Positions 5,857 through 21,700 of a DNA stretch of 32,000 bases are shown piece by piece; within the stretch, counting starts at the first letter, position 1, and each line of letters starts with the position of its first letter. The stretch lies in contig NC_017459.1 of assembly GCF_000237865.1 (NCBI RefSeq), positions 1,290,001 through 1,322,000 on the forward strand, read 5' to 3'. The DNA comes from Haloquadratum walsbyi C23 (lineage in GTDB: Archaea; Halobacteriota; Halobacteria; Halobacteriales; Haloferacaceae). The translations under genes were made by a program, and so were the position numbers. The notes beneath the pieces were generated by a model. That model did no database searches. It was not told where the DNA came from and was given only the letters and a program-made list of their open reading frames with translations.

Positions 5857-6040
5857 TCACCTTGGTTATGTTTTGCATCTTATATAAATCTATTGCACAA
5901 TTAATACAGAAGACATCATCAAATAACTACGTGCGTAGTGCAGCATGAGCAGGCTTCACGGTGGTCGTGTTTGCTCTCACTGACCGATCACATCGCTGGT
6001 ATGTATAGAATTAATAATTAATCCGCTGATCTGATTCAAT

Positions 6041-7419: not shown

Positions 7420-7974
7420 ACCTCTTTCCTCGCCTAGCTATGCATATAATTGTGGTGTGGACGCTAGAGTCACTCGGGATGCTCACATTGTCATATCTCA
7501 GGATTTACTCTCTCAACATGCTGACCTTTCCGATTGATATACTCTCGTGTCTATATCCTAAATCGGTGAGAGCTGCATTTTCTTGTTACTCAAATGAAAC
7601 TGAATATATCAGGTTTTGAATTGCTCATTAAATAAATAATAAATCAATTTGAGTACGTAACTGAGATATATATCGTAGGCATGAGACGTGAATCAGCGTT
7701 TACATAGGAGGGAAGAGTCAATTAAGAAGTATCTTGAATATGATCGCGGTTGATACAGACGAAACAGAACCGGAGCAGTGCGGGCGAGCGTAACATAATT
7801 TTGCTTTTGATCACCCTCAAGACTGCTCTAGTTTGTACTCCGCATCCTACATCATAGGAGCGACCGTCGAAGCCGTTGCTTGGGCTTATACTGACTCAAT
7901 TCGTTTAGTCCTATACATTCTGCCAGTGGACTTATGTAGTTTAGTTAGAAGATTTGGATGAGACTATCTACTCA

Positions 7975-8301
7975 ATGACTTGGAAAGAGGATATCCGAGA
8001 AGAACTGATTCGGTATCAAGAAGAGAAAGAACAGCGACAGTTCCGATTACACGATTTCTATGATTACTCAGAGCAGCGACTAGCCTCAAAGCACCCACGA
8101 AATAATCACGTTCGGGCAAAGATTAGACAAGTTCTCCAACAACTGCGGGATGCTGATGAGATTAAATTCGTTGATGATGCAGGAACGTATCATGCTAATG
8201 CCGTTGAGGATTCGGATGAGTCGCAGCAACAAGATACCAATAAGAAAAGCATGGAAATTGGAATTCTTGAACAGATGGAGGGTGAGTTTGAAGATATTTA
8301 A
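7975..8301 (+). CDS. Small stand-alone winged-helix-like protein (DpnI-C / Dam-replacing-protein-type HTH, tentative)
   Basis: The segment HPRNNHVRAKIRQVLQQLRDADEIKFVDDAGTYH resembles the ..KIRQqLQ.LRD.G.i.F...G.Y motif I recall at the C-terminal winged helix of DpnI/DRP-type restriction proteins. The track ORF starts at TTG 7954; the first in-frame ATG is 7975. Confidence 0.45.
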   Translation: MTWKEDIREELIRYQEEKEQRQFRLHDFYDYSEQRLASKHPRNNHVRAKIRQVLQQLRDADEIKFVDDAGTYHANAVEDSDESQQQDTNKKSMEIGILEQMEGEFEDI

Positions 8302-9441
8302 TTATGATCAGGAGTAAAATTCTTTCGACTGCATACAAATATTTTGAGTTTAATTCAGACAGTAGGACAGATGGATGCAATTGAGGTGTGTCTATTGAGA
8401 AATTGTATCTCACAAAGCCATCGATCCACTTGATACTTACAATACATAATCTGCTGGTTAAACCCCCTAACATCACAGTTCGATAAGGAATTAATCCTGC
8501 GCTGCTTAGGGAGTATTAATTTTTTATTAGATATACTCAAGCATTTTGACCTGGTTAAACCGGGTTGCTCTCATTTTAAATATTCTTGACATATGAAATG
8601 AGAGTATCTAAATTTGATTCAAACTCGCTGGCGAATGACATCGGGGACGTGACAGTATCGGTCGTCGCTGGCGGCGAATAGCGCATGAGCGGAGGGCATG
8701 ATATCTCACTGGGTCGTTATTTGCCTGGCGCAAACAGTTCTGGGGCTACTTGAACGCATCCACTTCGCTGTCACCACGGCAGCGCTGTTGACCCCTGATT
8801 GGGTGCTCCCGTGATATGATCTCATGATACTGTGACCTCTCTACCAATCAGGATTGGAGGACCCGTGATATGGTTCAAAAAGATGTCGAGAAATGAGTAA
8901 GGTGGGGTGTCTCGAAGTGCATACGACTCCTACTCATGTGTGATAAGAATGGTCATCGTCTGCGACTGACTCCGGAGTTGATGACCCAGAATGCTCAGTC
9001 ATTCTCCGGGTATTGAACAGTTTGAAACACTTGTTCGAATCACTCGCCCCGATAGGAGATCGACGACTCAGTTGTTTGCTATGTTGTGGCAATTTATGCC
9101 GGTGAAACCTGAGGAGTTAATATTGCTACTGGCGTCCCGTTAGGGGGCCACAACATAACTTTAATATCAATATCTCTATCAGATGCTCCCCGGACCTTGC
9201 CGACAACACCGTCCAGACCCCCATCACTGAAATGTTGAGTCTTTGGAAACCGGACGTAATCAGTTCCACATGCTATTATACATCTGTTCTAATCACTGAC
9301 CCTATGTGCCCACATGTCTTGTGCGAGTTTATTAAACACATTTGCGCTCACTTGGATTGTTTTCTTTTCAATCATAGCCAGAATCTAATTTCACTGTGAT
9401 TTAGACAATCATATAGAAGGAGTTACTATTATCTGAATGAT

Positions 9442-10539
9442 ATGTTGGTTTTAGATAATAACTGGGGAAATGTCCCAGAAAGATTCATTAGAAACCTTGC
9501 ATATGTGAGTAGCATGCAGGATAATCTCTTACCCATCTCGTATTACGCAGGGGTATTAGACTCACTAGCGAGGGTTCAATTTGATATTCAACAAGATGAG
9601 GGAGAGACAACGTTCACAGTTCGCTCATCGCTCCGAATTCGCACTCAAGATGATTCTCATCTTACTAGTCTGATTGGAGAATTTCTTGAGGCACATGACA
9701 TTGAATTCGATATTTTCTCTAGACAGAATACGTATAATTATTTTCACGTCTTTTTCAGAAAAGATATTAGAAAAATCAGACGACTGCTGAATGGCGAATC
9801 AACCCAACTGATTCGTGAACTATCATTTGTGGTCGGTCCGTATCAGAAACATTTTAACACCAAAATTCTAGAACCACCTGAGGTATACCGATTAATAACA
9901 GCAATCTATGAATTATTTTTTGACCAACGGTTAACTCCCAAATGGCATCCGAAGCCAAAGCAGTTCGCGAGTAAATTCAATATTAGTACAGACTCACTCG
10001 ATAAAATAGATATTCCAGTTGGTACTTTTAGAGATAACTATCCGGTTGAATACATAGCAGGGATCATAGACGCTTTAGCTGCTTTCAGACCTGGAATACA
10101 TACTACATCATACAGTATTGGTTATGGGATGACTCCAATAATTCGGATTCATCGAGGAGGGGTTCATCCAGCGTATGCATGTGCAGTGAAACAATTCTGT
10201 AATAATACTGGATTGAGCTCCAACTCCATGGGTCAAATCAATAGTTTAAATACAGTCATTCAGGGTGCAAATGCGATCGATTCGTTCGCTCCCGAAGTAG
10301 GTCCATATATGATTGCAAAAAAAGACAAACTCGCATATTTAGATAAAGAACTCATTCCGCGGTTCCTGAGTGGTGAACACCACTCAAAACAGGGGTTATA
10401 TGATTTGTTGGTTGATTTTCAGTCAATTATTAATACTAATACGGGTGAAGATCGATCATCTCAGTACACGCCAGAGTATTTTGAGAAAGAATGGGAGGGT
10501 GAAATTAATCCTGCAGATCAAAGAGCTCCTCATAAGTAG
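9442..10539 (+). CDS. Hypothetical protein with two LAGLIDADG-like motifs (possible free-standing homing-endonuclease-like protein)
   Basis: 365-aa ORF in very AT-rich DNA. The motifs are YYAGVLDSLARVQF (about aa 34-47) and EYIAGIIDALAAFRPG (about aa 203-218), each with an Asp at the canonical acidic position. The assignment is tentative. Confidence 0.55.
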   Translation: MLVLDNNWGNVPERFIRNLAYVSSMQDNLLPISYYAGVLDSLARVQFDIQQDEGETTFTVRSSLRIRTQDDSHLTSLIGEFLEAHDIEFDIFSRQNTYNYFHVFFRKDIRKIRRLLNGESTQLIRELSFVVGPYQKHFNTKILEPPEVYRLITAIYELFFDQRLTPKWHPKPKQFASKFNISTDSLDKIDIPVGTFRDNYPVEYIAGIIDALAAFRPGIHTTSYSIGYGMTPIIRIHRGGVHPAYACAVKQFCNNTGLSSNSMGQINSLNTVIQGANAIDSFAPEVGPYMIAKKDKLAYLDKELIPRFLSGEHHSKQGLYDLLVDFQSIINTNTGEDRSSQYTPEYFEKEWEGEINPADQRAPHK

Positions 10540-10858
10540 TCAATTCAATAATTCACTTCGGAGTCGCTGATCTGCATCAGTAACGAGCCTTACATCGTAT
10601 TTTTCACTAAATTCGAACATTTGTTCTACGTTATCAATCGCGAGTCCAATGTCACCTCTTTGTTTATACATCCTAGTCTTAAACCGGTAAGATTTGACCA
10701 CGAGTGTCTTTGCGTCATACCATGGCAGAGCCTCGTATCCGTAACTGAGGGCCTCTTCAACGGCATCAAGACATTCGTTGGTGGGTCGATCACGTTTTTT
10801 AGCACGCGCCAGTCGATAGTTTGCATCACCAAGCAGAATACTGGCCGCTTTTTGATGA

Positions 10859-10866
10859 TTGTCTGA
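10859..10866. repeat. Target-site duplication, left copy (TTGTCTGA)
   Basis: Identical 8-mer at 11869-11876, immediately outside the inverted repeats. An 8-bp duplication is typical of the IS1595 family. Confidence 0.85.
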
Positions 10867-11868
10867 CGCTCTTGTGAAGTACATTGTTGGTGAGTCAGAG
10901 AACTTCTCGGATAATCTGTTTCAGTGCTTCTTGTCCCGGTTTGCGGAGGATTCGTCGCCGAAGTTGGAACGGCCTGAGATATGCTGTCAGTTTGTCCTTT
11001 GAGACGCCTCGATGCGGCGAGAGCCACCGTCGCGCCAGCGACGCGTGGCTCTCGCACGTGTTCACATGTGCGTCTCCATCAACGTACTCGCCGTCACCGT
11101 GAATTACTGATTCTCGGTGGAAGCTCTCATCATTGTCGAGTGGATCGTAGGCACGAAATCCGTCAGTATAGATGCTCAGCGACTCCTTCTCGTGGTTGTC
11201 GAGAAGGAGTCGCACGGTCGTTTCATCGGCGGATTTCGCTGGGACGACGTATCGCTGACCGCTGCCCCGATCAACGAGCGTGAACACTGGCGGTTTATCA
11301 CCCTCATACGTTCCTCGTCCGCGTTTCGAGAGGGCACGCGAGCGCGACTCTCGATCGCGCTCGCGACCTTTCTTCCCAGCAGAGACATAGAACTCGTCGA
11401 TCTCGACCGGTCCAACGAGATCGATTGTTGGCGCGTCGAGCGTTCTGGCGAACTGCTCGACGCGCCGGTGAAGCGAGCGATACGAAACGTCAATTTCAGC
11501 GTCTAACTGGCGGATACTCGTGTTGAACCGGAGGAACGAGTAGAACGCGAACAACAGCTTATCGAGGCCGATCTTCGCGTGCGCAAAAATCGTGCCGGTT
11601 TTGTCGTTGAACGTGCGGTCGCAATCCTTACACAGGTACCGTTGATACTCTCGATAGCTGCCGTGTTTGATTACCGACTCAGACTGGCAGCGCGGGCAAC
11701 AGAGGCCCTCTCGCCAGCGAACCTGCTCCAGCAGGTTCGCGGCGCTCGCCTCTGAGCTCAGCAATTCAAATGGGAACATTGCGTTCAGGTGACGCGTCGC
11801 GTCACTCTTGCCCGCTACGCTTTCACGGCGATAGCTTTACCCGACCAACAATCTGCTTCAGAAGAGCG
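10867..11868 (-). mobile_element. IS1595-family insertion sequence (1002 bp), apparently intact and recently inserted
   Basis: 25-bp terminal inverted repeats match 22/25: 10867-10891 is cgctcttGtgaagTaCattgttggt, and the reverse complement of 11844-11868 is cgctcttCtgaagCaGattgttggt. A perfect 8-bp direct repeat TTGTCTGA flanks the element (10859-10866 and 11869-11876). It carries a single transposase ORF. A 17-nt palindrome gtgacgcgTcgcgtcac (11789-11805) sits upstream of the transposase ATG. Confidence 0.88.
10895..11779 (-). CDS. IS1595-family (DDE) transposase with N-terminal zinc ribbon
   Basis: 294 aa. The N-terminal Zn-ribbon is CCPRCQS...CKDCDRTF, followed by a DDE-type core (EIDEFYV..., IYTDGFRAYD...). 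This matches the haloarchaeal ISH-type IS1595 transposases I recognise. Confidence 0.9.
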   Translation of the reverse strand: MFPFELLSSEASAANLLEQVRWREGLCCPRCQSESVIKHGSYREYQRYLCKDCDRTFNDKTGTIFAHAKIGLDKLLFAFYSFLRFNTSIRQLDAEIDVSYRSLHRRVEQFARTLDAPTIDLVGPVEIDEFYVSAGKKGRERDRESRSRALSKRGRGTYEGDKPPVFTLVDRGSGQRYVVPAKSADETTVRLLLDNHEKESLSIYTDGFRAYDPLDNDESFHRESVIHGDGEYVDGDAHVNTCESHASLARRWLSPHRGVSKDKLTAYLRPFQLRRRILRKPGQEALKQIIREVL

Positions 11869-11876
11869 TTGTCTGA
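11869..11876. repeat. Target-site duplication, right copy (TTGTCTGA)
   Basis: See 10859-10866. Confidence 0.85.
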
Positions 11877-12651
11877 ATCCATTGCATAATACATTTGTTG
11901 AACATTATCACGTATCATCTCTAATGTGTCTGCAGATTTGATATTCGCCAAGGATGCTTGCGTAAGTTTATTTACTACTCGTTGCTGTATTTCTACAGTG
12001 CCATTGTCGTATGTCTCTCGTAATTGAGTGCAAGTCTCGTGCCAGTCAACCCCCTTTTCAAGTGACAATGATTTAATAAAATCGTGTTGTTGAAACTTAT
12101 CACTCTGCCAAACAACCGTATCAGTGAGTGAAATCGCGTAGGCTGGTTCATTATCATTATTCTGGCTAAACTGTAGCTTTGGTTCCGAACCAATAAATCG
12201 GGGCTTCTGTCGATCGTCTAGAATATTACTATGAAGCATCACGAGTTCTTCTGTGTCCAGTTCAATAACGCGAGTCTTGCCACTATACGGCGACACCGCT
12301 AAGTAGGACCCATCAGCAGAGAGTGACACGAATGGAGAACTCTCATTTAATTCGATTCGAGATAGCAAGTCTCCCGATTCATTTCTGACTATCACTTCAC
12401 TCCCTGTTGAAACGCCGTACTCACGCCAGTCGGCAACAGCTGCTGTGCCTTCTTCAGATCGGGCAGTGCTTCGTGGATTGACTAGCCGCTCATGAAAAGT
12501 TGGGTCGCCGTCTGTCAGAAGTACTGTATGACCATTGTTCTCCGGAGTTCCGTAACGATGTGCAATCTGGTACTTCGCACCTGCTGGGCGAGAGGAAAAC
12601 TGCAAGCTCTCATCCTCAATGGGCAATTCAATCCAACATTTATTATCCAGT

Positions 12652-13080
12652 TCACTCATCTCTGCCAGTTGTCGAAGACTTGTTGATAATATCTTTGCTT
12701 ATGCTGCTGAATAGATTGCCCGGTCCCGTATACTGGCTATAAAGTTGATTGACACCACCATTGGCGAACTCCCTAGCCACTTCGTATATACCAGCGCCAT
12801 CTTTGAGCATTTCTGAATCTTCAACCTCCTTTACTGCGATAGACTTGAGGATCCAGACTTGACTCTCACTAAGAGATCTCCGCTGGAATAGTGCATGTCT
12901 CGAATCTTCAAGCTCTGTTCGCAAACCCTTATTATACCCATAACACGCTGCAAAGACAAACAAATCATTTAGATTCTCACCATGGAATGGAGAGTCTTCA
13001 CTTTCTGTTAGCTCACTAAACATCTGCCGCTTATTCTTAGGGATATAAATATCTCGGGGGGCACCTGAATCATCGACCAT
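12652..13080 (-). CDS. Small helical protein, DndE-like / Dnd-associated-protein-like (tentative)
   Basis: 142 aa. ATG at 13078-13080 overlaps the DndD-like gene by 11 nt. The pattern DLFVFAACYGYNKG...FQRRSLSESQVWILKSIAV...EVAREFANGGVNQL resembles, from memory, small DndE / 'DNA phosphorothioation-associated protein 4'-type proteins found beside DndD homologs. This needs an HMM check. Confidence 0.5.
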   Translation of the reverse strand: MVDDSGAPRDIYIPKNKRQMFSELTESEDSPFHGENLNDLFVFAACYGYNKGLRTELEDSRHALFQRRSLSESQVWILKSIAVKEVEDSEMLKDGAGIYEVAREFANGGVNQLYSQYTGPGNLFSSISKDIINKSSTTGRDE

Positions 13081-15040
13081 ACTCTCTCACCTCAGTCTGA
13101 CCGTCCTCAAAATTAAGCCGATACTCATTCCCGACACGGTGTTTCATAAGATTTCTCACATTATCGTCATACTCTGTGTCGGTCATCAGGAACGTTATCT
13201 GACTGTCTTCAAGATATGTTGGTAGATTCTGAGCGATTCGTTTTCGATTCTCACTAGCGATTCTGCCAAGCGGGGTGTCAATTATAATTGGTGCCTGAAA
13301 GCCGCTGATGTCCGATAGTGCAGCCATGAAAGAGAGTGCTAACACCTGGCTTTCACCAGCAGAAAGTGACCCGATTCGATTATCTGAACTATCCGGTCCG
13401 CTGACTTCGATACCATAATCTTCTGTTAGGTGGATAGTATATTCTTCAGCTTTCCATATAAGTTCATTAAAATATTGATTGAGATTTTTTTGTGTATCTT
13501 CACGAATCTGACCCAAAATAGTATTGCGGATTGAATCTATCTCCTCAAGTGCCGTGTCAGCAAACTCAACTTGATTGATTATCTCCTTATGACGATTTTG
13601 CTTCCTTGCTTCTTTTCGAAACTCCTTTTCCTTCTTCTGTTTCCGCTTGAGGTTTGAATCTATTTTTGCCTCAATCCTTCCTACTTCTGTTTCCAATTCA
13701 GACTTTTGTTTTTCTAGATCATCTTGTTGCTTTGACAGAGCACTAACATTTATATCATCTGGGACGTCGAATCCTTCCAGTTTTGCCTTCGTTTCCATGA
13801 GATCACTATCTGTTTGTTCAATTTTCTTGGACAAATCGGTCATTCGTCGTCGTCTTTTTTCAAGCTCTTCAGCCCGATTGTTCCCATCTCGGATGATTCG
13901 TGGAATCTCTGCCTTCCCCTCAAGATTATCTGTTGATACCTCTGAGGCATTCTCAAGCGTCTGCTCAAGATGCTTGCGAGCGTCACTATCATCCATAATT
14001 TCACGACCGCAGATGCACTCACCTTCATCGATGAGTTCACGGACGAACCAGTCTTGGATCTTCGGTGGAAGCTGTCCCTTTTGTTCCATCTCAATGAGAG
14101 TCTCATGGGTATAGTTGAGAGCATCCAATGTGAAGACAGCAGGACCAGCCATATTCAATCGTTTACATGATTCAGACCGTGCCTCAGATTTTTTCCGTTT
14201 CAGCCGATCAATCTTTTGTTCAAGCCTCTCCCGTTCCTCTACAAGATTGCGAGCCCGATCATTAGCTGCACCTCGGAGATCATCTTTTATATCAGAAATT
14301 TTCCGAGTAATCTCCTCAATATCTTTTTCCTTCTGACTTTTTTGAGTTCGTTTATTAGATATGGTTGTCTCAATTTCTTCAATGGTATTTTGAATCTCAC
14401 TTGGCCGACCCTCAAACTTATTCGCTTTACGTCTAATTTCTTTTTTAACAGTTTCGAGATGATCATGTGAGCTGTTTAACAAGCCGATATGTGAAACATC
14501 AACAATTGCGTTTTCAACACGTTGCTTATATCCTGCTTCGAAAAATTCTGTCAGAGCCTCACCATCAAACAAGAAGTAGTCCTTTACCCTTGGAGGTAAT
14601 ATCTGATTGAGCGTATTATTTGGATTTTCGATGATTTTATATTGACTGCCTACTCTCCGACGTAATTGTAGCTCATCAATGTCATCGTTGTATGAGCCAT
14701 TAGCAATCTTATATGTGGTGAATTGTCTTTCAAAAATATATCTCGGCTCTGATTCTCCGAGTTCAACTTTCACCTGCCCACTCTTTGACTCTCCAGCACT
14801 TAGATTTTCAAGTGCGTCTTCTGTTACCAATGGCAATGTTTCCATATCATCGCTTCGAGACTCTTGATGGAGTTCGCGTCCGTAGAAGCATAGCGTAAGC
14901 GCGTTAAGAATATTTGATTTGCCTGCGCCATTCTGTCCTTCAATAATATTTATATTCGTACTCTTCTCAGTCCTGAGATTAACCGTCTGTGTGCCAGAAT
15001 ACTGTCGGTAATTTGATATTTCAACAGAAAGTAATCGCAT
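13070..15040 (-). CDS. DndD-like SMC/Rad50-type ABC ATPase with central CxCG hook
   Basis: 656 aa. The N-terminus MRLLSVEISNYRQY...IIEGQNGAGKSNILNAL carries Walker A. About aa 190-500 is K/E/R-rich coiled coil interrupted by QLPPKIQDWFVRELIDEGECICGREI (Cys codons at 14015-14017 and 14009-14011). ABC signature is SLSAGESQVLALSF and Walker B is APIIIDTPLGRI. Size and layout match DndD-family proteins. Confidence 0.8.
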   Translation of the reverse strand: MRLLSVEISNYRQYSGTQTVNLRTEKSTNINIIEGQNGAGKSNILNALTLCFYGRELHQESRSDDMETLPLVTEDALENLSAGESKSGQVKVELGESEPRYIFERQFTTYKIANGSYNDDIDELQLRRRVGSQYKIIENPNNTLNQILPPRVKDYFLFDGEALTEFFEAGYKQRVENAIVDVSHIGLLNSSHDHLETVKKEIRRKANKFEGRPSEIQNTIEEIETTISNKRTQKSQKEKDIEEITRKISDIKDDLRGAANDRARNLVEERERLEQKIDRLKRKKSEARSESCKRLNMAGPAVFTLDALNYTHETLIEMEQKGQLPPKIQDWFVRELIDEGECICGREIMDDSDARKHLEQTLENASEVSTDNLEGKAEIPRIIRDGNNRAEELEKRRRRMTDLSKKIEQTDSDLMETKAKLEGFDVPDDINVSALSKQQDDLEKQKSELETEVGRIEAKIDSNLKRKQKKEKEFRKEARKQNRHKEIINQVEFADTALEEIDSIRNTILGQIREDTQKNLNQYFNELIWKAEEYTIHLTEDYGIEVSGPDSSDNRIGSLSAGESQVLALSFMAALSDISGFQAPIIIDTPLGRIASENRKRIAQNLPTYLEDSQITFLMTDTEYDDNVRNLMKHRVGNEYRLNFEDGQTEVREYGR

Positions 15041-15237
15041 TAACTGTCACCGCTCTCCATGTATTGTTTAATTAGATTTTTATAATCTTCCTTATACTCA
15101 AAATTATCCTTACCCATATTTCCTCTCTCAATCTTTAATATCTCTTTAATAAATCCTTTCAATTTACTGTCGGAAATCCCGTCAACTTCAGATGTGATCA
15201 ATTCATTGACTTCTTCTGAATCCATCAATATATGCAT
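15040..15237 (-). CDS. 65-aa K/E-rich micro-protein, translationally coupled to the DndD-like ATPase
   Basis: Its stop TAA overlaps the downstream ATG by one base (TAATG, 15038-15042). No recognisable domain. The start could instead be the Met at aa 5. Confidence 0.45.
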   Translation of the reverse strand: MHILMDSEEVNELITSEVDGISDSKLKGFIKEILKIERGNMGKDNFEYKEDYKNLIKQYMESGDS

Positions 15238-15307
15238 ATCCGACCATCTACTTTAATTTGTGCGTAAATTATCAGATACCACATAATAAATATCAATTTC
15301 TGGACTC

Positions 15308-17350
15308 TTATAACTGAAATTCACGCTTAATATCTTGCAATTTCAACCGAGCCCTTGTTTCATTGAGTGCAGTTTCGGCAAATTCTTCAAACCGTTCCAA
15401 TTCTCGTTCGAGAATCCCTCTCTCTGAGGCGCCAAGTTCAGAATCAGATTCCACAGCCGGGACGACTATCATATCATATATACTCGCTTTCTCTTTCCCA
15501 CTCTCTGGGTGCTGTCTTAATACCCGGCCTCGGCGCTGGACAAACTCCTTAGGATTACGATTATTTGCCATCAGGATGGCCTGCCGCGTGGAGGGCACAT
15601 CAACCCCTTCATCAAGACATTTCATCGCAACAAGAGCCTCATAACGTCCGTCTGCAAAGGCAGAGAGTAGTTTCTGACGTTCCTCGTCATCTTCCTCTGC
15701 TGTAAAACGATGTTGTACGATACCCCGGTTAGTCATTCGCTGTTGTACTTCATCTATTTGCTGGTAATTTGTATACACAAGAAGGTGGTCAATATCTATC
15801 TCATCAAGTATTTTCTCAATTTCACTATATTTTTGCTTTGCACTTTTCAGTATATTTGCTCGTTTTGTGAGCAACCTTTCCCGAGTTTCTTCGACTGTGT
15901 CATCATCGCTGTCGCCTAAACGTGCCAATTTATGTGAAATTTTCTTGTAGCGAGCGAGCTCTTCCCCATCCATCTCCACTATCCGTGGATAATACTCATA
16001 CGGTGTCAGATACTTTGGAATTGCATCGGCTAATGTATATTGAAAGACAATGTCATCAAAGTAGTTTGACAGAAATTCTGTCCCCTCTTCATCATAGTAA
16101 CGTTCAGGCGTCGCAGATAGCCCTAATCGATAATTAAACTGTGGAACTAAGCCCTTACGCCGAATCTCAGCACCGAGATTATGCACCTCATCAGCTATAA
16201 TGAGACTATCAAACGGGATTGATTTGAGTTGATTACGAAAGAAGTCTGTCGATCCGGTCTGATGGGTGGTAATAATTATTTCTCTATCTGTAAACCCTAA
16301 TTCCAAACCATCAATTGTTGTCTGTAGTGCTGACTTCCAATCAGAGCAGTGCGACCCATATAGTAATTTATATGAAGTATAGTCGAAATCATCTAAACTA
16401 TCTGCCCATTGCTTCGCCAGATGCGTCATAGGAACGGTTATAACGGCGAGCATTGGATCATCTTGATATTCATACTCTCGCAGTATATCACGCATAGCAC
16501 CAATAGCGGTGTATGTCTTTCCAGTCCCAGTGGCCATCTTGAAGAGACCGTGGCGGCCATTATTATGCCAGTTATTAACAGCAGTCTGCTGATAATCACG
16601 AAGTGATATTTTACTCACAGTATGATTGGTCTCTATATTATCCGGGGGTGTATATGGGCGTTCGTCTGTTGTTCTTAATTGCTTGATATCTTGCTCTATG
16701 CTCTCAGGAGGTGTAATAGTCGTTATATTTTTCTTCTCGTTATTCCATAAATCGTCAAATCGACGCTCATGAATGTCCACAGCCTCTGCTTCACGATTGC
16801 CCATCCAGTCACAGTCAATCGTGTATGCCTCATAATTCTCAAACGCGTGCTGGCTATCATTTTGAGATCCATGAAAAGCAATACGGTGACCTTCCGTATC
16901 CTGAGCAATTCCAAACTTGTCATGAAACTGACCACGCAGCGATCCATGAGGTATTGCAAATTTGAGTTCAAGGAGTCCATCAGCAATCATCCAAGCAACT
17001 GCGTTGCGAGTTTCGCTATGAAGTTCCTCCTCAAGGGAGCTTATTGATGATTCTAGTGCTGACTTTAATACTTCGTCAGAACGAGCAACTCCTCCCTTCT
17101 TGATTGCCTCCCAGTCTTTCTCTGAGAGGATTGGACTTGTAATCCATCTCGCAACACCTCCATTTTCGACGAGATTTATTACTCCCCGACTGGCTGACTC
17201 AAGCCATCCAGTTGTGAAGTAGCCAACTCCGCGCTTGTACTCGATGGCATGAGTAAGCATTGGAACATAAAACTCTGAGATAAAGTTGTTTTCTGAAGTC
17301 TCAATCACACGTGGCCAGTCGATACTGGAAAAATCAGCCGAAGGTGTCAT
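15308..17350 (-). CDS. Fusion protein: N-terminal single-HKD phospholipase-D-family nuclease domain + SF2 (ResIII/ERCC3-type DExH) helicase
   Basis: 680 aa. HKD motif is FHDKFGIAQDTEGHRIAFHGSQND (nt 16859-16924). Helicase motifs: I MATGTGKT, II IIADEVH, III LGLSATPER, VI QRRGRVLR. Confidence 0.9.
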   Translation of the reverse strand: MTPSADFSSIDWPRVIETSENNFISEFYVPMLTHAIEYKRGVGYFTTGWLESASRGVINLVENGGVARWITSPILSEKDWEAIKKGGVARSDEVLKSALESSISSLEEELHSETRNAVAWMIADGLLELKFAIPHGSLRGQFHDKFGIAQDTEGHRIAFHGSQNDSQHAFENYEAYTIDCDWMGNREAEAVDIHERRFDDLWNNEKKNITTITPPESIEQDIKQLRTTDERPYTPPDNIETNHTVSKISLRDYQQTAVNNWHNNGRHGLFKMATGTGKTYTAIGAMRDILREYEYQDDPMLAVITVPMTHLAKQWADSLDDFDYTSYKLLYGSHCSDWKSALQTTIDGLELGFTDREIIITTHQTGSTDFFRNQLKSIPFDSLIIADEVHNLGAEIRRKGLVPQFNYRLGLSATPERYYDEEGTEFLSNYFDDIVFQYTLADAIPKYLTPYEYYPRIVEMDGEELARYKKISHKLARLGDSDDDTVEETRERLLTKRANILKSAKQKYSEIEKILDEIDIDHLLVYTNYQQIDEVQQRMTNRGIVQHRFTAEEDDEERQKLLSAFADGRYEALVAMKCLDEGVDVPSTRQAILMANNRNPKEFVQRRGRVLRQHPESGKEKASIYDMIVVPAVESDSELGASERGILERELERFEEFAETALNETRARLKLQDIKREFQL

Positions 17351-17614
17351 TAGAGTGTGTTGGAACTAGCTACGGTATAACTGCTCGGGCGTGAGACCCT
17401 GATAACTTGCCTGTCGAGATATAGTGGTCTCTATCCGGACATGAACTGGTAGAGCAATGGAAGATACGGAAAATTGATTTGAATACCATATCAATCTTAT
17501 CTCACATATTAGATTGAGTAGATAATGTAGGAAAAGATGAGGCATAGTATTATGACTGACAAACAAATAACGTATAAGATAAGATAATGTGGCGGATTCA
17601 TTTGATCAACATAT
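17351..17614. promoter_or_regulatory. Divergent intergenic control region between module A and module B
   Basis: A 264-bp AT-rich gap separates two divergently transcribed ATGs (17350 minus, 17615 plus). A TATA-like stretch tataagataagataa (17573-17587) lies about 30-40 nt upstream of ATG 17615. There is a 6-bp inverted repeat attgat/atcaat near 17473-17495. Promoter positions are inferred, not demonstrated. Confidence 0.35.
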
Positions 17615-20600
17615 ATGACACAACCAATGGGTGAGACTGATATTCCAACATTACAAGATGCATGGGATCCTCGAGAAGATGTTCTCCAGGGTAAAATTCG
17701 AGATGAGAGTCTTGCTGCTGATGCACACGAAGTTGCATATGGGAATAACGTGCCGGATGTATATGATGATACAGAGACGTTCTTCGATTTAACATATCCA
17801 ACATCTGGTGTCACGGGTGTTATCGAAGCGGTTGCTCAACGTGTGATTGCGCATTATCGTGGTGAGTTCCCGGAAGAAAATGGGACTATCACGCTTGACA
17901 CGTCATTTGGGGGAGGAAAGACGCACTCCCAAATTGCCGCATACCATCTTGCTGAACATAGTGACGAAATTCCTGATCTAACGCGATACACACAAAGTGA
18001 CGAAACAGCTCATGAGTATCGCGCTCTCGAAAATAATAAATCAGTACTGACGTCTGTTTTTGTCGGGACAAAGTACGCGCCGAAACCGGTCAAGCCAAAA
18101 CAAGTCCGGCAAGGCGAGCATACCCCAGAAATACAGACAATCTGGGGACATATCGCCTATCAATTGTATGGTGTTGAAGGATATCAGGTAGTGAGTAGTG
18201 GGAATAATCTCGTTGCTCCTGGTGAGCAGTTGCTCAGTAATCTGTTTTCACTGTCTGATGAGGCGGCTGTTATCATTATGGATGAGATTGCGGCTCACTT
18301 ATCTCACGCAACCGCTGTGTCTGTTAATGATGGAAATCTCGCAGAACAGACGCTCAATTTCTTGATGGCGCTGTTCAATTATGCGTCAAACAATAGTGAT
18401 GTGACGGTGATCATGAGTGTTGCAGCTGACGCATTCGAAGATTTCGCGACGATTTTCGAACGCGACCTTTCTTACGATGATGAGGTGATGGATGCCGATG
18501 TTTCCATCCCGATTGCAAAAGAGACCATTCAGGAATTTCAGAATATTGAGGAGCGTGTCGCGAATAAAATCACTCCGGTTGAGGACAGTAATGTTGCAGA
18601 CGTCCTGCGAAATCGGTTATTCAAAAATAACATCGAGACTGGATTGCGTGAGGATATCGCTCAACGATATTACGACTTCTATGATGCCGATAGTAGTTCA
18701 TTCCCAGATGAAGCCTCACAGCCGGAAGCACGCGAACGAATTGAGCAAACATATCCGTTTCACCCAACAGTCGTCGACACGCTAACGAAGCAGATTGATG
18801 CCGTTCCATCATTTCAGAAGGCTCGTGGAGCACTCAAGTTACTTGCCCCAGCCGTCATGCGATTATGGACTGATGAAGGTCAGGGTCCACTGACAGCAGA
18901 TCGTGAGCTGATTCGTCTGTATGATTTACATCCACAGGATGAGCGCACGAGCAAGATGCTGAAGAGTATCTTTGGTGATATTGAGATGGACTTTGAGCCT
19001 GCGGTGAAGGATGACATATACAATACGGATCCGAATGATACACCAAATGCCCTGTATGAGGATAAATATTGGATCAATCGAGGGCAGCCACCACTCGGAA
19101 CCCGAGTTGTAACGACGACAATTTGGAAATCACTCGTAAAAGGTGCAGGAAGCAAAGGAACGAGTCGTGATTACATTAGATACGCGAGCGCGAAGCCTGG
19201 TGAGACGATTGATCACTACAATAGCGCCATCGGGAATCTCCTTGGTGAGAGCGATGAGTCAGCATGTTTCTACTTACATGGTGAGAATAACCAACAATTG
19301 AAATTCAAGACGATTGTCACAGTCGAGAAAGCGATTAATCAGGCGAATCCGCGCACAAGTCGTGTTGATAATCTGCTTGATGAGACGTTATACAATGCCG
19401 CACTTGGTGGATCCTCAATGACAATCTATGAAAACCCACAGGCTGTGCATGAGGTTGACGATACGATTGAGACGCTCGGACAGCTTGTGGTTGTTGAGCC
19501 GTCGACACTCACGATTAGTGAGCCAGATGATATTACAGAAACTGTTGTCACAAAAATTTATGAGAGGTCCGCAAGCTCCAAGCACGGAAACAAGAAGCCG
19601 CGAACGTATAAGAACAATCTAATTTTTCTCGTGCCGGGTATCAGGATTTCGCGCGCTCGGAGCAAGGCAGGTCGCCTCGCTTCGGTTCGCGTTGTACAGG
19701 ATAATCCAGATGATTTTGGGTTGCAGGATGCGCAGTTAGATGAACTCCCAACAAAGCGAGATGAAGCGCGTGGTGATCTTGAGAACTTGGTTAAGAACGC
19801 GTATTCACATGTATATATCCCGAGCAATCCGTCGCCAGACCAACCACATGAAGGACTTGCACATTACAATATCACCGTTACTGACAGTACACTTATTAAC
19901 GCAGTTATCGCCAAATTGGAGGATTCTGGAGAAGTTATTACAAATAATGAGCCAGCGTACAGCCCGAACTGGTTAGAAAATAACCTCTGGATGGCTGTTG
20001 GCGATTCAATGACAACAGTTGAGCTGAAACAACAGATTGGAAAGCAGCGCAGTGCGGAGATATTGCTTGACCCGCGTCCACTACAGAAAACAATCAGGCG
20101 GGCTATTAGAGAGTCCGACAGCAAATTCGCCTACTGGAACCATCACCACGAGCGTGGGTATGTGGATCCAAGTGCATTTGAGGAAATATTTGATGAGCGT
20201 AATGAGACGGTCACATTCGATGAGGCGCATAATCTTGTCGCCGCAGAAGAGCTTGAGGACGTGGGTATTGACAGCTCAGAAGAAGTATATGAATCGACTG
20301 AAACGCTGATAGAGAGTGTCGCCGTTACATGGCAGTGCTCTGATTGTGGTGATTACTTGGACTCAACACGCGAGTATGCTGAGCACTCATGTCAGATAGA
20401 AATTGAGTGCGGACAATGTCCTGACACCTTCTCAACTCAACAAGAGTATGAACAGCACTTACCATGTGGTACAAATTACGACTGTAGTAACTGCGGGCGG
20501 ACGTTCAATACAGAAGAGTCACTCACCGAGCACCAACCGTGTCCATGGCCGCAAACAGTAGTAGGGAAGACGGATAGTCCAGCGGTTGTCACTGAAGCTG

Positions 20601-21067
20601 TCGATACGATTACCGCAGAGATTGAGGATAAGGTGACCCAAATCAAACACAACTTCAACAGTTCAACACATGAAATCAAGCAGTCATTGGACGGACTGAC
20701 TCTCAAACTACAGGGAGATGACGCGTGGAAGAAGGGTGAGTGGATTGCCAAACAGATGCCAGAGCAAGATGGACTTCAGAATGTTGCTGTCGAACTTGAG
20801 TATGAGGCACGATATGATGACAGTCATGTTGAGACTCACTTCGATGGTACTGGCAAAATGTTTGCAGACACACTCAAACATACAAACAAACCGAGTGGGT
20901 CACCAGATGATCAGTATATTGAAATCTTGATCAAGGCTGACACATCACTTGAATTAAATCGGCTTGATATTCTTGAGGATATTATCCCTGGTGCGACGAC
21001 TATCGAAATGAGTGTGAGAACAGCTCTTGAATTGACCGAAGATGAGAAACAAGAGATGACTCCATAA
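17615..21067 (+). CDS. DUF499-type P-loop ATPase (PbeA-like) with a C-terminal triple C2HC zinc-finger insert
   Basis: 1150 aa. The N-terminal pattern ...ESLAADAHEVAYGN..PDVYDD.ETFFDLTYPTSG... is followed by Walker A TSFGGGKTHS and Walker B AVIIMDEIAAH, which I recognise as typical of the DUF499 family. Three CxxC-x12-H-x(1-2)-C units lie at nt 20330-20542. Confidence 0.8.
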   Translation: MTQPMGETDIPTLQDAWDPREDVLQGKIRDESLAADAHEVAYGNNVPDVYDDTETFFDLTYPTSGVTGVIEAVAQRVIAHYRGEFPEENGTITLDTSFGGGKTHSQIAAYHLAEHSDEIPDLTRYTQSDETAHEYRALENNKSVLTSVFVGTKYAPKPVKPKQVRQGEHTPEIQTIWGHIAYQLYGVEGYQVVSSGNNLVAPGEQLLSNLFSLSDEAAVIIMDEIAAHLSHATAVSVNDGNLAEQTLNFLMALFNYASNNSDVTVIMSVAADAFEDFATIFERDLSYDDEVMDADVSIPIAKETIQEFQNIEERVANKITPVEDSNVADVLRNRLFKNNIETGLREDIAQRYYDFYDADSSSFPDEASQPEARERIEQTYPFHPTVVDTLTKQIDAVPSFQKARGALKLLAPAVMRLWTDEGQGPLTADRELIRLYDLHPQDERTSKMLKSIFGDIEMDFEPAVKDDIYNTDPNDTPNALYEDKYWINRGQPPLGTRVVTTTIWKSLVKGAGSKGTSRDYIRYASAKPGETIDHYNSAIGNLLGESDESACFYLHGENNQQLKFKTIVTVEKAINQANPRTSRVDNLLDETLYNAALGGSSMTIYENPQAVHEVDDTIETLGQLVVVEPSTLTISEPDDITETVVTKIYERSASSKHGNKKPRTYKNNLIFLVPGIRISRARSKAGRLASVRVVQDNPDDFGLQDAQLDELPTKRDEARGDLENLVKNAYSHVYIPSNPSPDQPHEGLAHYNITVTDSTLINAVIAKLEDSGEVITNNEPAYSPNWLENNLWMAVGDSMTTVELKQQIGKQRSAEILLDPRPLQKTIRRAIRESDSKFAYWNHHHERGYVDPSAFEEIFDERNETVTFDEAHNLVAAEELEDVGIDSSEEVYESTETLIESVAVTWQCSDCGDYLDSTREYAEHSCQIEIECGQCPDTFSTQQEYEQHLPCGTNYDCSNCGRTFNTEESLTEHQPCPWPQTVVGKTDSPAVVTEAVDTITAEIEDKVTQIKHNFNSSTHEIKQSLDGLTLKLQGDDAWKKGEWIAKQMPEQDGLQNVAVELEYEARYDDSHVETHFDGTGKMFADTLKHTNKPSGSPDDQYIEILIKADTSLELNRLDILEDIIPGATTIEMSVRTALELTEDEKQEMTP

Positions 21068-21071
21068 CTGC

Positions 21072-21698
21072 ATGAGCGGAACACAATACAATTCAGAGCC
21101 ATTCGCATTTACTGCAGGTCGATATGGTGATCGACCGGTTTTCATATTGACACGGCGGTGGAAGCAGAAAGGACCAGAGGTGACACTGTATGAGCTTGCG
21201 CCAGATAATATCGCACAGACGCGTAGGGAGCGATTTGATGATATGTCATCGTCGGCAAGTCTGACAATTCACGAACTCCCTGATATCATCGCAGACGGTC
21301 AGACACCGAATGATATCAAAAGTGGTCACGGTGACGGGACACATGACTGGTCGAACTGGCAAGCGTTGAAGATTGTAACGCTCGGTGGTGAACGAAACAA
21401 GATCGCGATTAGTTCGCTTGTGAGACCAGTACTCACTTCTGGGGAATATGATACGGATTCGGTCTGTGTCGGGAGTGACGGCTCGCTTGCAGTATCAGAG
21501 TCGGTCGGCATTCGGTTGTCAATTGGATTTCGAGCGTTGCGCCCAGTCAGAAAGCAGAATCGACTTCAGGCGATTGCTGATGGGGTGAGTAATATGACAC
21601 TTGGTGAGTGTTACTATTGGCATGCCAAAATGCGGTCGCCAACGGTTCCGAGTGGTGCAAAGGCACTTCGAATACTTCTCAGTAGTCACATTAACTGA
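21072..21698 (+). CDS. Small conserved-slot protein (position of DUF3780/PbeB in DUF499-DUF1156-helicase clusters)
   Basis: 208 aa. Starts 4 nt after the upstream stop and ends 2 nt before the next ATG. I recognise no motif, so the assignment rests on gene order only. Confidence 0.5.
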   Translation: MSGTQYNSEPFAFTAGRYGDRPVFILTRRWKQKGPEVTLYELAPDNIAQTRRERFDDMSSSASLTIHELPDIIADGQTPNDIKSGHGDGTHDWSNWQALKIVTLGGERNKIAISSLVRPVLTSGEYDTDSVCVGSDGSLAVSESVGIRLSIGFRALRPVRKQNRLQAIADGVSNMTLGECYYWHAKMRSPTVPSGAKALRILLSSHIN

Positions 21699-21700
21699 TC

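What the first reader, a model, noticed from the sequence alone, without database searches (positions are those of the whole stretch)
12652..17350. Candidate undescribed defence operon: PLD-helicase fusion + micro-ORF + DndD-like SMC ATPase + DndE-like protein (+ an IS-split fifth gene)
Seen in the sequence: five consecutive minus-strand ORFs with tight coupling.
- The 65-aa stop and 656-aa start overlap as TAATG (15038-15042).
- The 656-aa and 142-aa genes overlap by 11 nt (13070-13080).
- The 142-aa stop and the next start overlap as ATGAGTGA (12652-12659).
- Only a 70-nt gap separates the 680-aa gene from the 65-aa ORF.

Gene content:
- A single-HKD PLD nuclease domain (FHDKFG...GSQND) fused to a ResIII-type DExH helicase.
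- A 65-aa K/E-rich ORF.
- A Rad50/DndD-like ABC ATPase with a long coiled coil and a GECICG hook.
- A 142-aa helical DndE-like protein.
- A 369-aa gene now split by an IS.

No methyltransferase or sulfur-transfer gene lies inside this operon. From what I recall, the combination does not match Lamassu, Gabija, PARIS, Wadjet, Septu, DndFGH/Dpt, Ssp, BREX or DISARM.

Inference: an SMC-type DNA sensor or clamp drives a PLD-helicase effector. The operon sits in a defence island, divergent from a Pbe-like module.
Basis: partly seen in the sequence, partly recalled or inferred. Interest (0 to 1): 0.85.

Follow-up and report, generated by a model that had tools for sequence, protein, structure and literature searches.

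The report
Known PbeABCD defence cassette, two extras
The "undescribed" operon is the already published PbeABCD antiviral system of Haloquadratum walsbyi, and this exact locus is listed in the 2019 discovery paper; the only new point is that its IS-split fifth gene and a neighbouring inactive-homing-endonuclease-like gene always travel with this branch of the system.

Summary
All five minus-strand ORFs, their overlaps, the motifs and the IS-split 369-aa gene are there.

The interpretation "undescribed" is wrong:
- PADLOC models call the 680-aa protein PbeA (E 4.6e-224) and the 656-aa protein PbeC (E 4.6e-234).
- The 65-aa and 142-aa ORFs are PbeB and PbeD (the latter matches TIGR04062 dnd_assoc_4).
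- PbeABCD was shown to be antiviral by Xiong et al. 2019. It was re-annotated by the Aravind lab as the CxC-ABC-ATPase/DndE-cognate/HKD-SF2/small-protein system.
- Xiong's supplementary table lists this very locus (H. walsbyi C23) as a solitary PbeAC.

What is new is small. The fifth gene (g5) and a convergent sixth gene (g6) accompany pbeABCD in 8 independent haloarchaeal loci.
- g5 has a beta-propeller-like domain plus a helical domain. The same module is elsewhere fused to Mrr nucleases.
- g6 is a two-domain LAGLIDADG fold lacking both catalytic acids.

Neither gene appears in the Pbe literature I could read. None of these loci has dnd genes. Relatives carry PF01555 methyltransferases, which this window lacks. 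Here g5 is knocked out by a recent IS1595 insertion, so the cassette is probably impaired.

The parts
15308..17350 (-). pbeA: single-HKD (PLD-family) nuclease domain fused to an SF2/ResIII helicase, 680 aa
   Evidence: PADLOC PbeA PDLC02707, E 4.6e-224, residues 7-668 of the protein on model positions 2-669/672. TIGR04095 dnd_restrict_1, 429 bits, below its cutoff of 600. Pfam ResIII, DEAD and Helicase_C. HxK...GSxN, GTGKT and DEVH are conserved in 12 loci.
15040..15237 (-). pbeB: 65-aa acidic K/E-rich small protein
   Evidence: No family hit. Positional counterparts of 51-65 aa lie between pbeA and pbeC in the loci compared; tblastn at E<=1e-5 detects them at 33-62% identity in L001-L005, L007, L009 and L010, but not in L011 or L012. 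Size and position match PbeB (66 aa) of Xiong 2019. The stop overlaps the pbeC start as TAATG.
13070..15040 (-). [quoted passage not shown]
   Evidence: PADLOC PbeC PDLC02723, E 4.6e-234, model positions 2-618/618. TIGR03185 DndD scores only 176 bits, below its cutoff of 245.85. Walker A, C-I-C-G, LSAGE and IIIDTP are conserved.
12652..13080 (-). pbeD: 142-aa Dnd-associated protein 4 (the 'DndE cognate' of the Aravind lab)
   Evidence: TIGR04062 dnd_assoc_4, E 1.4e-11 (44.8 bits, below its cutoff of 74.25); 12 of 12 positional homologues hit the same model. Homologues carry PF27807 DNA_S_mod_dnd_assoc_4. It overlaps pbeC by 11 nt and g5 by 8 nt.
11869..12659 (-). g5, 5' part (codons 1-263 and two bases of codon 264), up to and including one copy of the target-site duplication
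   Evidence: Reconstruction and empty-site allele. Matches positions 1-264 of the g5 profile.
10867..11868 (-). IS1595-family insertion sequence (1002 bp) interrupting g5; transposase ORF 10895-11779
   Evidence: NF033547 transpos_IS1595, E 5.8e-40. Pfam DDE_Tnp_IS1595 and Zn_ribbon_IS1595. About 26-nt imperfect (88%) inverted repeat at its ends (I1). 8-bp TSD TTGTCTGA at 10859-10866 and 11869-11876. GC 0.55 against about 0.42 around it.
10540..10858 (-). g5, 3' part (third base of codon 264, codons 265-369 and the stop)
   Evidence: In frame after IS removal. Matches positions 253-369 of the g5 profile. Identical junction in the uninterrupted allele L013.
9514..10539 (+). g6: 341-aa two-domain LAGLIDADG-fold protein without catalytic acidic residues, convergent with and abutting g5 (the ORF is open from 9442; the conserved Met is at 9514)
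   Evidence: Homologues at 40-67% identity. AF2 model with pTM 0.74. Foldseek matches to I-LtrI, I-OnuI and I-SmaMI at E 1e-12, TM up to 0.75. Motif alignment to I-PanMI shows the catalytic Glu replaced by Leu. It sits next to g5 in 8 loci.
17351..17614 (.). 264-bp divergent intergenic region between pbeA and the Hma-like DUF499 gene. Presumed promoter region; this is inferred only.
   Evidence: ORF map. No block is conserved with the upstream regions of 4 related loci.

Best explanation
The locus is a PbeABCD antiviral cassette of Haloquadratum walsbyi. [quoted passage not shown] The window corresponds to strain C23, about NC_017459.1:1,290,001-1,322,000. It belongs to a haloarchaeal branch that is not linked to dnd genes and that carries two extra, co-inherited genes.

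SHOWN HERE
- Gene identities, order and translational coupling.
- Intact catalytic motifs.
- The IS1595 knockout of g5.
- Strict co-occurrence of g5 and g6 with pbeABCD in relatives.
- The LAGLIDADG fold of g6, with both catalytic acids missing.
- Homology of g5 to the C-terminal half of Mrr-nuclease fusion proteins.
- Absence of dnd genes here and in relatives.
- PF01555 methyltransferases beside all relatives that have enough flank, but not in this window.

FROM THE LITERATURE
- In Haloterrigena jeotgali all four pbe genes are needed for about 10^4-fold protection against virus SNJ1 (pbeA only partly).
- Viral DNA replication is blocked without visible DNA degradation.
- Protection requires the self mark (PT).

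INFERRED MECHANISM
- PbeC dimers, joined through the CxC zinc hook, load on DNA together with PbeD and read its modification state.
- On unmarked (foreign) DNA they license PbeA, which translocates by its SF2 motor and blocks replication and/or nicks through the HKD site.
- PbeB is an essential small subunit or regulator.
- In this branch the self mark is more likely N4/N6 methylation than phosphorothioate.
- g6 would supply sequence-specific DNA binding (targeting or operon control).
- g5 would be a sensor or adaptor module.
- In this genome g5 is disrupted and the usual methylase pair is missing, so the cassette is probably impaired or idle.
For: Identity
- PADLOC PbeA E 4.6e-224 and PbeC E 4.6e-234, both full length.
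- TIGR04095, TIGR04062 and TIGR03185 (sub-threshold) hits.
- Sizes and order match PbeA/B/C/D as published and as re-annotated.
- The CxC motif is conserved.
- Xiong Supplementary Data lists H. walsbyi C23 NC_017459.1 with PbeA 1305446-1307290 and PbeC 1303091-1305040, and with DndCD and MTase 'non-existing'.
- The g6 protein is 100% identical to an H. walsbyi protein on a 3,148,033-bp contig.

Accessory genes
- g5 and g6 follow pbeD in the window/L013, L002 (Natronomonas salina), L003/4 (Halobacterium salinarum), L005, L007/8, L009, L010 (H. walsbyi HBSQ001) and L014.
- Their divergence tracks that of PbeC. When PbeC is 66-70% identical, g5 is 46-50% and g6 is 42-53%. When PbeC is 50-55%, g5 is 31-32% and g6 is 23-26%.
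- The gap between pbeD and g5 ranges from -8 to +18 nt in 7 of 8 loci.
- g5 homology to Mrr_cat fusion proteins: hhalign probability 99.6%, E 1e-24.
- g6 fold.

Modification partner
- PF01555 MTases lie within 10 kb in 10 of 10 relatives with adequate flanks.
- None is found in the window by tblastn or tblastx.
- No dnd hit appears in any scanned ORF.
Against: - There is no functional data for this branch. The only experimental Pbe system (H. jeotgali) is PT-dependent and has four genes.
- PbeD reaches neither the TIGR04062 cutoff nor any DndE model or PDB entry by sequence.
- dnd or methylase genes elsewhere in the C23 genome could not be searched.
- The roles proposed for g5 and g6 rest on fold and context only.
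- g6 could still be a hitchhiking decayed homing-endonuclease gene.
- The g6 model has only moderate confidence (pLDDT 70.7).
- I could not read Krishnan et al. 2020, so g5 or g6 may be mentioned there under another name.
Confidence: 0.85

Rival explanations
1. One reading: a previously undescribed defence system, distinct from all named systems, in which an SMC-type sensor drives a PLD-helicase effector.
For: The domain architecture was read correctly. g5 and g6 have no Pfam, NCBIfam or PADLOC family.
Against: There are full-length matches to the PADLOC PbeA and PbeC models. The published four-gene description is identical in order and sizes. The locus itself is tabulated in the 2019 paper.
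Confidence: 0.02
2. A plain four-gene PbeABCD. On this view g5 and g6 are unrelated neighbours: g6 is a decayed selfish homing-endonuclease gene and g5 is a passenger. They have no role in the system.
For: - g6 is on the opposite strand in 7 of 8 loci and has lost its catalytic residues.
- The characterised H. jeotgali system works with four genes.
- Sister-clade loci lack g5 and g6.
- g5 tolerates an IS knockout here.
Against: - g5 and g6 were found only next to pbeABCD: 8 distinct loci in at least 3 genera plus metagenomes.
- Only about 11 full-length 50%-identity clusters exist among 1.8 billion proteins.
- Their divergence parallels that of PbeC.
- g5 overlaps or abuts pbeD.
- The non-acidic residue at g6 catalytic position 1 (Leu42) is invariant across the 11 aligned homologues (40-100% identity), which argues for selection on a non-catalytic function.
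- g5 is homologous to a module fused to Mrr nucleases.
Confidence: 0.25
3. A canonical PT-dependent Pbe module that works with dndCDEA genes located elsewhere in the H. walsbyi chromosome.
For: The only tested Pbe system needs PT. The PbeC and PbeD families were first defined by their linkage to dnd genes (TIGR04062 and TIGR04095 names).
Against: - There is no dnd gene in 32 kb.
- Xiong's table records no dndCD near it.
- None of the 12 related haloarchaeal loci has dnd genes, whereas 10 have PF01555 methylases.
- 58% of PbeAC pairs in Xiong 2019 are dnd-less.
Confidence: 0.1
4. The 656-aa and 142-aa genes are the DNA-phosphorothioation enzymes DndD and DndE themselves. This would make the locus a modification module, not a restriction module.
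For: JGI names the 656-aa protein 'DNA sulfur modification protein DndD'. TIGR03185 gives E 1.1e-51.
Against: - The score is below the TIGR03185 cutoff (176 against 245.85), whereas the PbeC models score 776 bits.
- The protein has the CxC hook, which the literature says DndD lacks.
- There is no DndC, DndA or DndB nearby.
- The 142-aa protein hits dnd_assoc_4, not DndE.
Confidence: 0.02

Closest known systems
PbeABCD of Haloterrigena jeotgali A29 (Xiong et al. 2019, Nat Commun 10:1688, PMC6459918)
   Same: - Same four genes in the same order.
- Near-identical sizes: PLD+ResIII+Helicase_C; 66 against 65 aa; AAA_23 ATPase; 152 against 142 aa.
- One transcription direction with overlapping stops and starts.
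- Haloarchaeal host.
- PADLOC Pbe models match at full length.
- This very locus is in their table of 553 PbeAC pairs.
   Different: - No dndCDEA next to it.
- Two additional conserved genes (g5, g6) that the published system is not described as having.
- g5 is IS-disrupted here.
- No experimental data exist for this branch.
CxC ABC-ATPase-centred conflict systems (Krishnan et al. 2020; Aravind-lab reappraisal of Dnd systems, NAR 2024, PMC10853773)
   Same: - CxC zinc-hook ABC ATPase plus cognate DndE-like protein, HKD-SF2 helicase and a rapidly evolving small protein.
- Occurrence independent of dnd genes and frequent linkage to cytosine-N4/C5 methylases, which matches the PF01555 methylases beside the relatives.
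   Different: - The 2024 text does not mention a LAGLIDADG, WD40/propeller or TPR component.
- Its 'MTaX1' accessory domain is said to be widespread in R-M systems, unlike the tiny g5 and g6 families.
- The 2020 paper could not be read.
DndD-DndE pair of the DndABCDE phosphorothioation machinery
   Same: PbeC is a sister clade of DndD (TIGR03185, E 1e-51, full length). The small partner gene lies immediately downstream.
   Different: Below the DndD cutoff, has a CxC hook, has no DndA/B/C, and is paired with a nuclease-helicase rather than sulfur-transfer enzymes.
Monomeric two-domain LAGLIDADG homing endonucleases (I-OnuI, I-LtrI, I-SmaMI, I-PanMI) and catalytically dead derivatives such as WhiA (the WhiA comparison is from my own knowledge)
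   Same: g6 has the same pseudo-dimeric fold (Foldseek E 1e-12, TM up to 0.75) and both LAGLIDADG helices.
   Different: - Catalytic Asp/Glu is replaced by an invariant Leu (motif 1) and by variable Leu/Arg/Gln/Cys (motif 2).
- It is not inside an intron or intein.
- It is inherited with a defence cassette.
Mrr_cat (PD-(D/E)xK) nuclease fusion proteins of about 660-760 aa (P0153, P0158, P0161, P0173, P0174)
   Same: Their C-terminal half is homologous to g5. For P0153 and P0158 nearly the whole of g5 aligns (hhalign 99.6%, 287-315 columns).
   Different: g5 is stand-alone, has no nuclease domain, and is coupled to pbeD.
Hma and DISARM (the neighbouring genes, not the finding itself)
   Same: They are also helicase, methylase and ATPase defence modules. 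The 1210-aa neighbour has a PLD domain homologous to that of PbeA (PbeA model E 7.6e-52 on its residues 5-335).
   Different: This is a different gene set: DUF499/HmaC, DUF7680, an HmaB-like methylase, PLD-SNF2, DrmB and DrmA.

Membership tests
PbeABCD / CxC-ABC-ATPase system | PbeA: PLD/HKD nuclease domain fused to an SF2 (ResIII + Helicase_C) helicase | tested here: met
   PADLOC PbeA, E 4.6e-224, full length. Pfam ResIII, DEAD and Helicase_C. The HKD motif is conserved.
PbeABCD / CxC-ABC-ATPase system | [quoted passage not shown] | tested here: met
   PADLOC PbeC, E 4.6e-234. C-[IL]-C-G is invariant in 12 loci; Walker A, signature and Walker B are intact.
PbeABCD / CxC-ABC-ATPase system | PbeB: small (about 60-66 aa), fast-evolving protein encoded between pbeA and pbeC | tested here: met
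   The 65-aa ORF overlaps the pbeC start. Positional homologues show 33-62% identity where tblastn detects them. No HMM exists for it.
PbeABCD / CxC-ABC-ATPase system | PbeD: about 140-155-aa DndE-cognate / dnd_assoc_4 protein immediately after pbeC | tested here: met
   TIGR04062, E 1.4e-11 (below the curated cutoff); 12 of 12 positional homologues hit it. PF27807 is present on homologues.
PbeABCD / CxC-ABC-ATPase system | PbeD has the DndE fold | tested here: inconclusive
   No DndE HMM or PDB hit by sequence. The claim rests on PMC10853773.
PbeABCD / CxC-ABC-ATPase system | Conserved order A-B-C-D as one transcription unit | tested here: met
   Same strand, overlaps of 1, 11 and 8 nt, and one 70-nt gap. 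Transcription itself was not tested.
PbeABCD / CxC-ABC-ATPase system | Linkage to dndCDEA (PT modification) as the self mark | tested here: not met
   No dnd gene in the 32-kb window. Xiong's table also says there is none. This is not strictly defining: 58% of published PbeAC pairs lack dndCD.
PbeABCD / CxC-ABC-ATPase system | Modification-dependent antiviral activity | not testable with these tools
   Needs expression in a haloarchaeal host and virus challenge.
DndD (TIGR03185) / DndE PT-modification pair | Score above the curated DndD cutoff, no CxC hook, and DndC/DndA partners | tested here: not met
   176 bits against a cutoff of 245.85. CxC is present. No DndC or DndA is present.
LAGLIDADG homing endonuclease (for g6) | Two LAGLIDADG helices in a pseudo-dimeric alpha-beta-beta-alpha-beta-beta-alpha fold | tested here: met
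   Foldseek E 1e-12, TM 0.6-0.75. Motifs at residues 34-45 and 204-215. An internal repeat is seen by the profile.
LAGLIDADG homing endonuclease (for g6) | Catalytic acidic residue at motif position 8 of each LAGLIDADG helix | tested here: not met
   Leu42 is invariant. Motif 2 has L, R, Q or C at this position. It aligns to the Glu of I-PanMI 'DGEGSF'.
Hma / DISARM (considered because of the neighbours) | HmaA/B/C or DrmA/B/C proteins within the operon in question | tested here: not met
   These models hit only the genes at 17615-31967, not 9514-17350.

The most novel reading that the evidence does not exclude
g5 and g6 are integral, so far undescribed components that define a six-gene, dnd-independent (probably methylation-linked) haloarchaeal subtype of Pbe. 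In this reading g6, a catalytically dead LAGLIDADG scaffold, provides sequence-specific DNA recognition or control. g5, a beta-propeller/alpha-solenoid module that is elsewhere fused to Mrr nucleases, acts as a trigger sensor or adaptor for the PbeC-PbeD-PbeA machine. In the sister clade the same slot is filled by a convergent HNH_repeat protein (another family named for homing-endonuclease-associated repeats). This hints at a swappable DNA-recognition module.
Probability: 0.4. Interest if true: 0.45.

Novelty: new variant of a known kind. Interest (0 to 1): 0.27.

Why it matters
As posed, the finding does not matter much. The operon is a known, experimentally validated defence system, and this locus was already catalogued.

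The residual value lies in three points.
1. How 'solitary' Pbe cassettes (58% of all) work without phosphorothioation is an open question in the Pbe literature. This branch shows a consistent alternative context: PF01555 methylase pairs plus two private accessory genes.
2. Repurposing of a dead LAGLIDADG scaffold inside a defence cassette would be an unusual domestication of a homing endonuclease.
3. H. walsbyi offers natural comparisons: C23 (g5 knocked out by an IS, no methylases), an uninterrupted allele in metagenomes, and strain HBSQ001, which has a 50%-divergent Pbe allele with methylases at the same hotspot. These could be used to test which parts are required.

Tried and rejected
- **dnd or methylase genes and pseudogene remnants in the window.** I ran family scans of all ORFs of at least 110 aa and listed ORFs of at least 75 aa in 1-9450. 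I ran tblastn with the relatives' methylases and tblastx of 1-9450 against the loci. Nothing was found.
- **PbeD against DndE.** A profile search of the PDB and NCBIfam gave only dnd_assoc_4 and no DndE hit.
- **A conserved operator or promoter block upstream of pbeA.** I aligned this region in five related loci as a candidate g6 site. There was no conserved block.
- **Relation of g5 or g6 to the HNH_repeat proteins in the sister clade's slot.** Profiles gave no hit.
- **Genome-contig scan with PbeC alone.** It returned only one locus (L001), which lacks g5 and g6, so context was obtained through the look-up of encoding contigs instead.
- **Krishnan et al. 2020 (definition of CxC systems and MTaX1).** The paper is not held in the library.
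- **g5 fold.** Foldseek gives only generic propeller + solenoid coat-protein matches with TM 0.2-0.34. I do not take these as homology.
- **JGI's label for g6.** No Pfam, NCBIfam or PADLOC hit supports '5-methylcytosine-specific restriction protein A', and I disregarded it.
- **tRNA or integrase island borders.** No tRNA was found in the window.


Full report
**1. Observation**

On the minus strand there are ORFs of 680 aa (15308-17350), 65 aa (15040-15237), 656 aa (13070-15040), 142 aa (12652-13080) and 278 aa (11823-12659).

The junctions are as stated:
- TAATG at 15038-15042
- an 11-nt overlap at 13070-13080
- ATGAGTGA at 12652-12659
- a 70-nt gap between the first two genes

The 278-aa ORF is the front of a gene cut by a 1002-bp IS1595-family element (10867-11868):
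- The transposase ORF is 10895-11779 (NF033547, E 5.8e-40).
- The element has about 26-nt imperfect inverted ends.
- It has an 8-bp target duplication, TTGTCTGA, at 10859-10866 and 11869-11876.
- Removing the IS and one duplicate restores a 369-aa frame ending at 10540.

A metagenomic contig (L013) carries the same locus without the IS. PbeC and PbeD are 100% identical and g5 and g6 are 99% identical. Its sequence has a single TCAGACAA at the site. The insertion is therefore real and recent.

**2. What the four core genes are**

| Protein | Best match |
|---|---|
| 680 aa | PADLOC PbeA, E 4.6e-224, model positions 2-669/672 |
| 656 aa | PADLOC PbeC, E 4.6e-234, model positions 2-618/618 |
| 680 aa | TIGR04095 'DNA phosphorothioation system restriction enzyme', sub-threshold |
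| 656 aa | TIGR03185 DndD, 176 bits against a cutoff of 245.85 |
| 142 aa | TIGR04062 'DNA phosphorothioation-associated protein 4' |

All 12 positional homologues of the 142-aa protein hit TIGR04062.

The literature agrees:
- Xiong et al. 2019 (PMC6459918) defined pbeABCD as a PLD+ResIII+Helicase_C protein, a 66-aa protein, an AAA_23 SMC-like ATPase and a 152-aa protein, co-transcribed in that order.
- The Aravind lab (PMC10853773) re-annotated it. PbeA is an HKD endoDNase plus SF2 helicase. PbeB is a fast-evolving small protein. PbeC is a CxC zinc-hook ABC ATPase, sister to DndD. PbeD is the DndE cognate.

It is conserved in 12 loci, together with HxK...GSxN, GTGKT, DEVH, Walker A, LSAGE and IIIDTP.

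Xiong's Supplementary Data lists 'Haloquadratum walsbyi C23, NC_017459.1, PbeA 1305446-1307290, PbeC 1303091-1305040, DndCD non-existing, MTase non-existing'. With an offset of 1,290,000 these coordinates fall on the window's genes. The species assignment is supported in two ways:
- The g6 protein is 100% identical to an H. walsbyi protein on a 3,148,033-bp contig.
- Bases 28246-32000 are 98.5% identical to H. walsbyi HBSQ001.

The operon is therefore not undescribed. This very locus has been catalogued.

**3. The neighbour was mislabelled**

The divergent genes at 17615-28197 are:
- a DUF499/HmaC ATPase (E 2.6e-78)
- a DUF7680 protein
- an HmaB-like methylase (E 2.5e-48)
- a PLD-SNF2 helicase (DrmD, BrxH and HmaA models)

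They are followed on the minus strand by DrmB and DrmA. This is an Hma-like module plus DISARM genes, not Pbe.

**4. The fifth gene and a sixth**

The reconstructed g5 has only nine 90%-identity clusters of homologues among 5.8 billion proteins. All are 367-369 aa and none has a Pfam domain. An exhaustive profile search finds about 11 full-length 50%-identity clusters.

Every context I could read places g5 directly after pbeD. It is followed by a gene homologous to window 9514-10539 (g6). These contexts are:
- Natronomonas salina (L002)
- Halobacterium salinarum (L003/4)
- two metagenomes (L005, L007/8)
- more divergently, L009, L014 and H. walsbyi HBSQ001 (L010)

Divergence of g5 and g6 parallels that of PbeC:

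| PbeC identity | g5 identity | g6 identity |
|---|---|---|
| 66-70% | 46-50% | 42-53% |
| 50-55% | 31-32% | 23-26% |

The pbeD-g5 spacing is -8 to +18 nt in seven of eight loci. Loci with PbeC at 47% identity or less lack both genes. Three of these (L011, L015, L016) have a convergent PF18780 HNH_repeat protein in the same slot. L001 and L012 have neither.

**5. What g5 and g6 look like**

g5:
- The AF2 model (pLDDT 87) has an N-terminal beta-rich domain of 17 strands (residues 8-185) and a C-terminal helical repeat domain (187-368).
- Sequence and fold searches give WD40-type repeat matches and only generic propeller + solenoid architecture matches.
- More informatively, nearly the whole g5 module is homologous to the C-terminal half of about 730-aa proteins whose N-terminus is an Mrr_cat restriction-endonuclease domain. 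hhalign gives probability 99.6%, E about 1e-24, over 287-315 columns.
- g5 is therefore a free-standing copy of a module that elsewhere is attached to a nuclease. This fits a sensor or adaptor role; that role is an inference.

g6:
- The model (pLDDT 70.7, pTM 0.74) matches monomeric two-domain LAGLIDADG homing endonucleases such as I-LtrI, I-OnuI and I-SmaMI (E 1e-12, TM up to 0.75).
- Both LAGLIDADG helices are recognisable: YYAGVLDSLARV and YIAGIIDALAAF.
- The catalytic acidic position is an invariant Leu in motif 1 and L, R, Q or C in motif 2.
- HMMER aligns motif 2 to I-PanMI 'YISGFVDGEGSF', with the catalytic Glu opposite Leu.
- g6 is thus most likely a non-catalytic, sequence-specific DNA-binding protein. 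That too is an inference.

**6. Modification partner**

- No dnd gene is present in the window or in any of the 12 related haloarchaeal loci.
- All ten relatives with enough flanking sequence carry PF01555 (N6_N4) methyltransferases. Usually this is a pair: a protein of about 980 aa fused to HATPase_c_3 and one of about 520 aa. This matches the methylase-linked CxC systems described in PMC10853773.
- The window has none of these. Where HBSQ001 has the pair next to pbeA, C23 has the Hma-like module.
- With g5 also disrupted, the C23 cassette is probably impaired, although its four core ORFs and their motifs are intact.

**7. Mechanism**

Shown in H. jeotgali:
- All four genes are needed for about 10^4-fold protection (pbeA only partly).
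- Protection depends on the PT mark, not on the Dnd proteins.
- Viral DNA replication is blocked without visible degradation.

The Aravind lab argues that the conserved HKD site implies cleavage and that PbeB is a negative regulator.

My reading for this locus is inferred. PbeC dimers plus PbeD read the modification state. They license PbeA translocation with replication block and/or nicking on unmarked DNA. The self mark in this branch is probably methylation. g6 gives DNA-sequence recognition or control, and g5 couples a signal or partner to the complex.

**8. Verdict**

The core system is already known. The conserved g5/g6 extension and its dnd-less context make it, at most, a new variant of a known kind. 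Interest is low to moderate.

Noticed in passing
window 17615-28197 (+): Four-gene module divergent from pbeA: a DUF499/HmaC-like ATPase with C2H2 zinc fingers (17615-21067), a DUF7680 protein (21072-21698), a 950-aa HmaB/DUF1156-like methylase (21701-24553), and a 1210-aa PLD + SNF2 helicase (24565-28197). The helicase hits DrmD, BrxH and HmaA models, and its PLD domain is homologous to that of PbeA.
   Followed up: partly
window 28297-31967 (-); breakpoint near 28246: DrmB (610 aa) and the C-terminal part of DrmA (DISARM) are 98.5% identical at the DNA level to H. walsbyi HBSQ001 (L010 16347-20101). Identity stops at 28246, so everything to the left is strain-specific. HBSQ001 carries at the same hotspot a different Pbe allele (PbeC 50% identical), in the opposite orientation relative to drmBA, together with a methylase pair.
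   Followed up: partly
L010 8-2642 (-) and L014 1-4063 (-): Second, divergent PbeB/C/D-like sets sit next to the main Pbe cassette. Their ATPase is about 25% identical to the window PbeC. In L014 the set has a 473-aa helicase that appears to lack the PLD domain. This resembles the duplicated ABC-ATPase/DndE pairs described in PMC10853773.
   Followed up: no
L011 12455-14398, L015 10462-11976, L016 10543-12777 (all convergent with pbeD): In the sister clade (PbeC 47-48% identical) the slot occupied by g5 and g6 holds a 504-744-aa PF18780 HNH_repeat protein. It has no sequence similarity to g5 or g6.
   Followed up: partly
window 4940-9440: About 4.5 kb has no ORF longer than 123 aa and no similarity to the flanks of related loci. 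It may be non-coding or heavily decayed sequence bordering the island.
   Followed up: partly
window 10867-11868: The IS1595-family element has GC of about 0.55 against about 0.42 for the surrounding island. Its intact 8-bp TSD and the 99-100% identical uninterrupted allele in metagenome contig L013 indicate a very recent insertion.
   Followed up: yes
window 15040-15237: pbeB has a markedly lower GC (0.31) than its neighbours (0.41-0.44). This is consistent with its description as a rapidly evolving small protein.
   Followed up: no
window 1742-2827 (+), 3909-4541 (+): There are ordinary-looking genes at the left edge: a D-2-hydroxyacid dehydrogenase (PF02826, PF00389) and a VWA-domain protein. 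They may mark the end of the defence island.
   Followed up: no
P0153, P0158, P0161, P0173, P0174 (not in the window): A family of about 660-760-aa proteins combines an N-terminal Mrr_cat nuclease (some members have a zinc ribbon) with a C-terminal region homologous to g5. These are possibly single-protein defence effectors. Their genomic contexts could not be looked up.
   Followed up: partly
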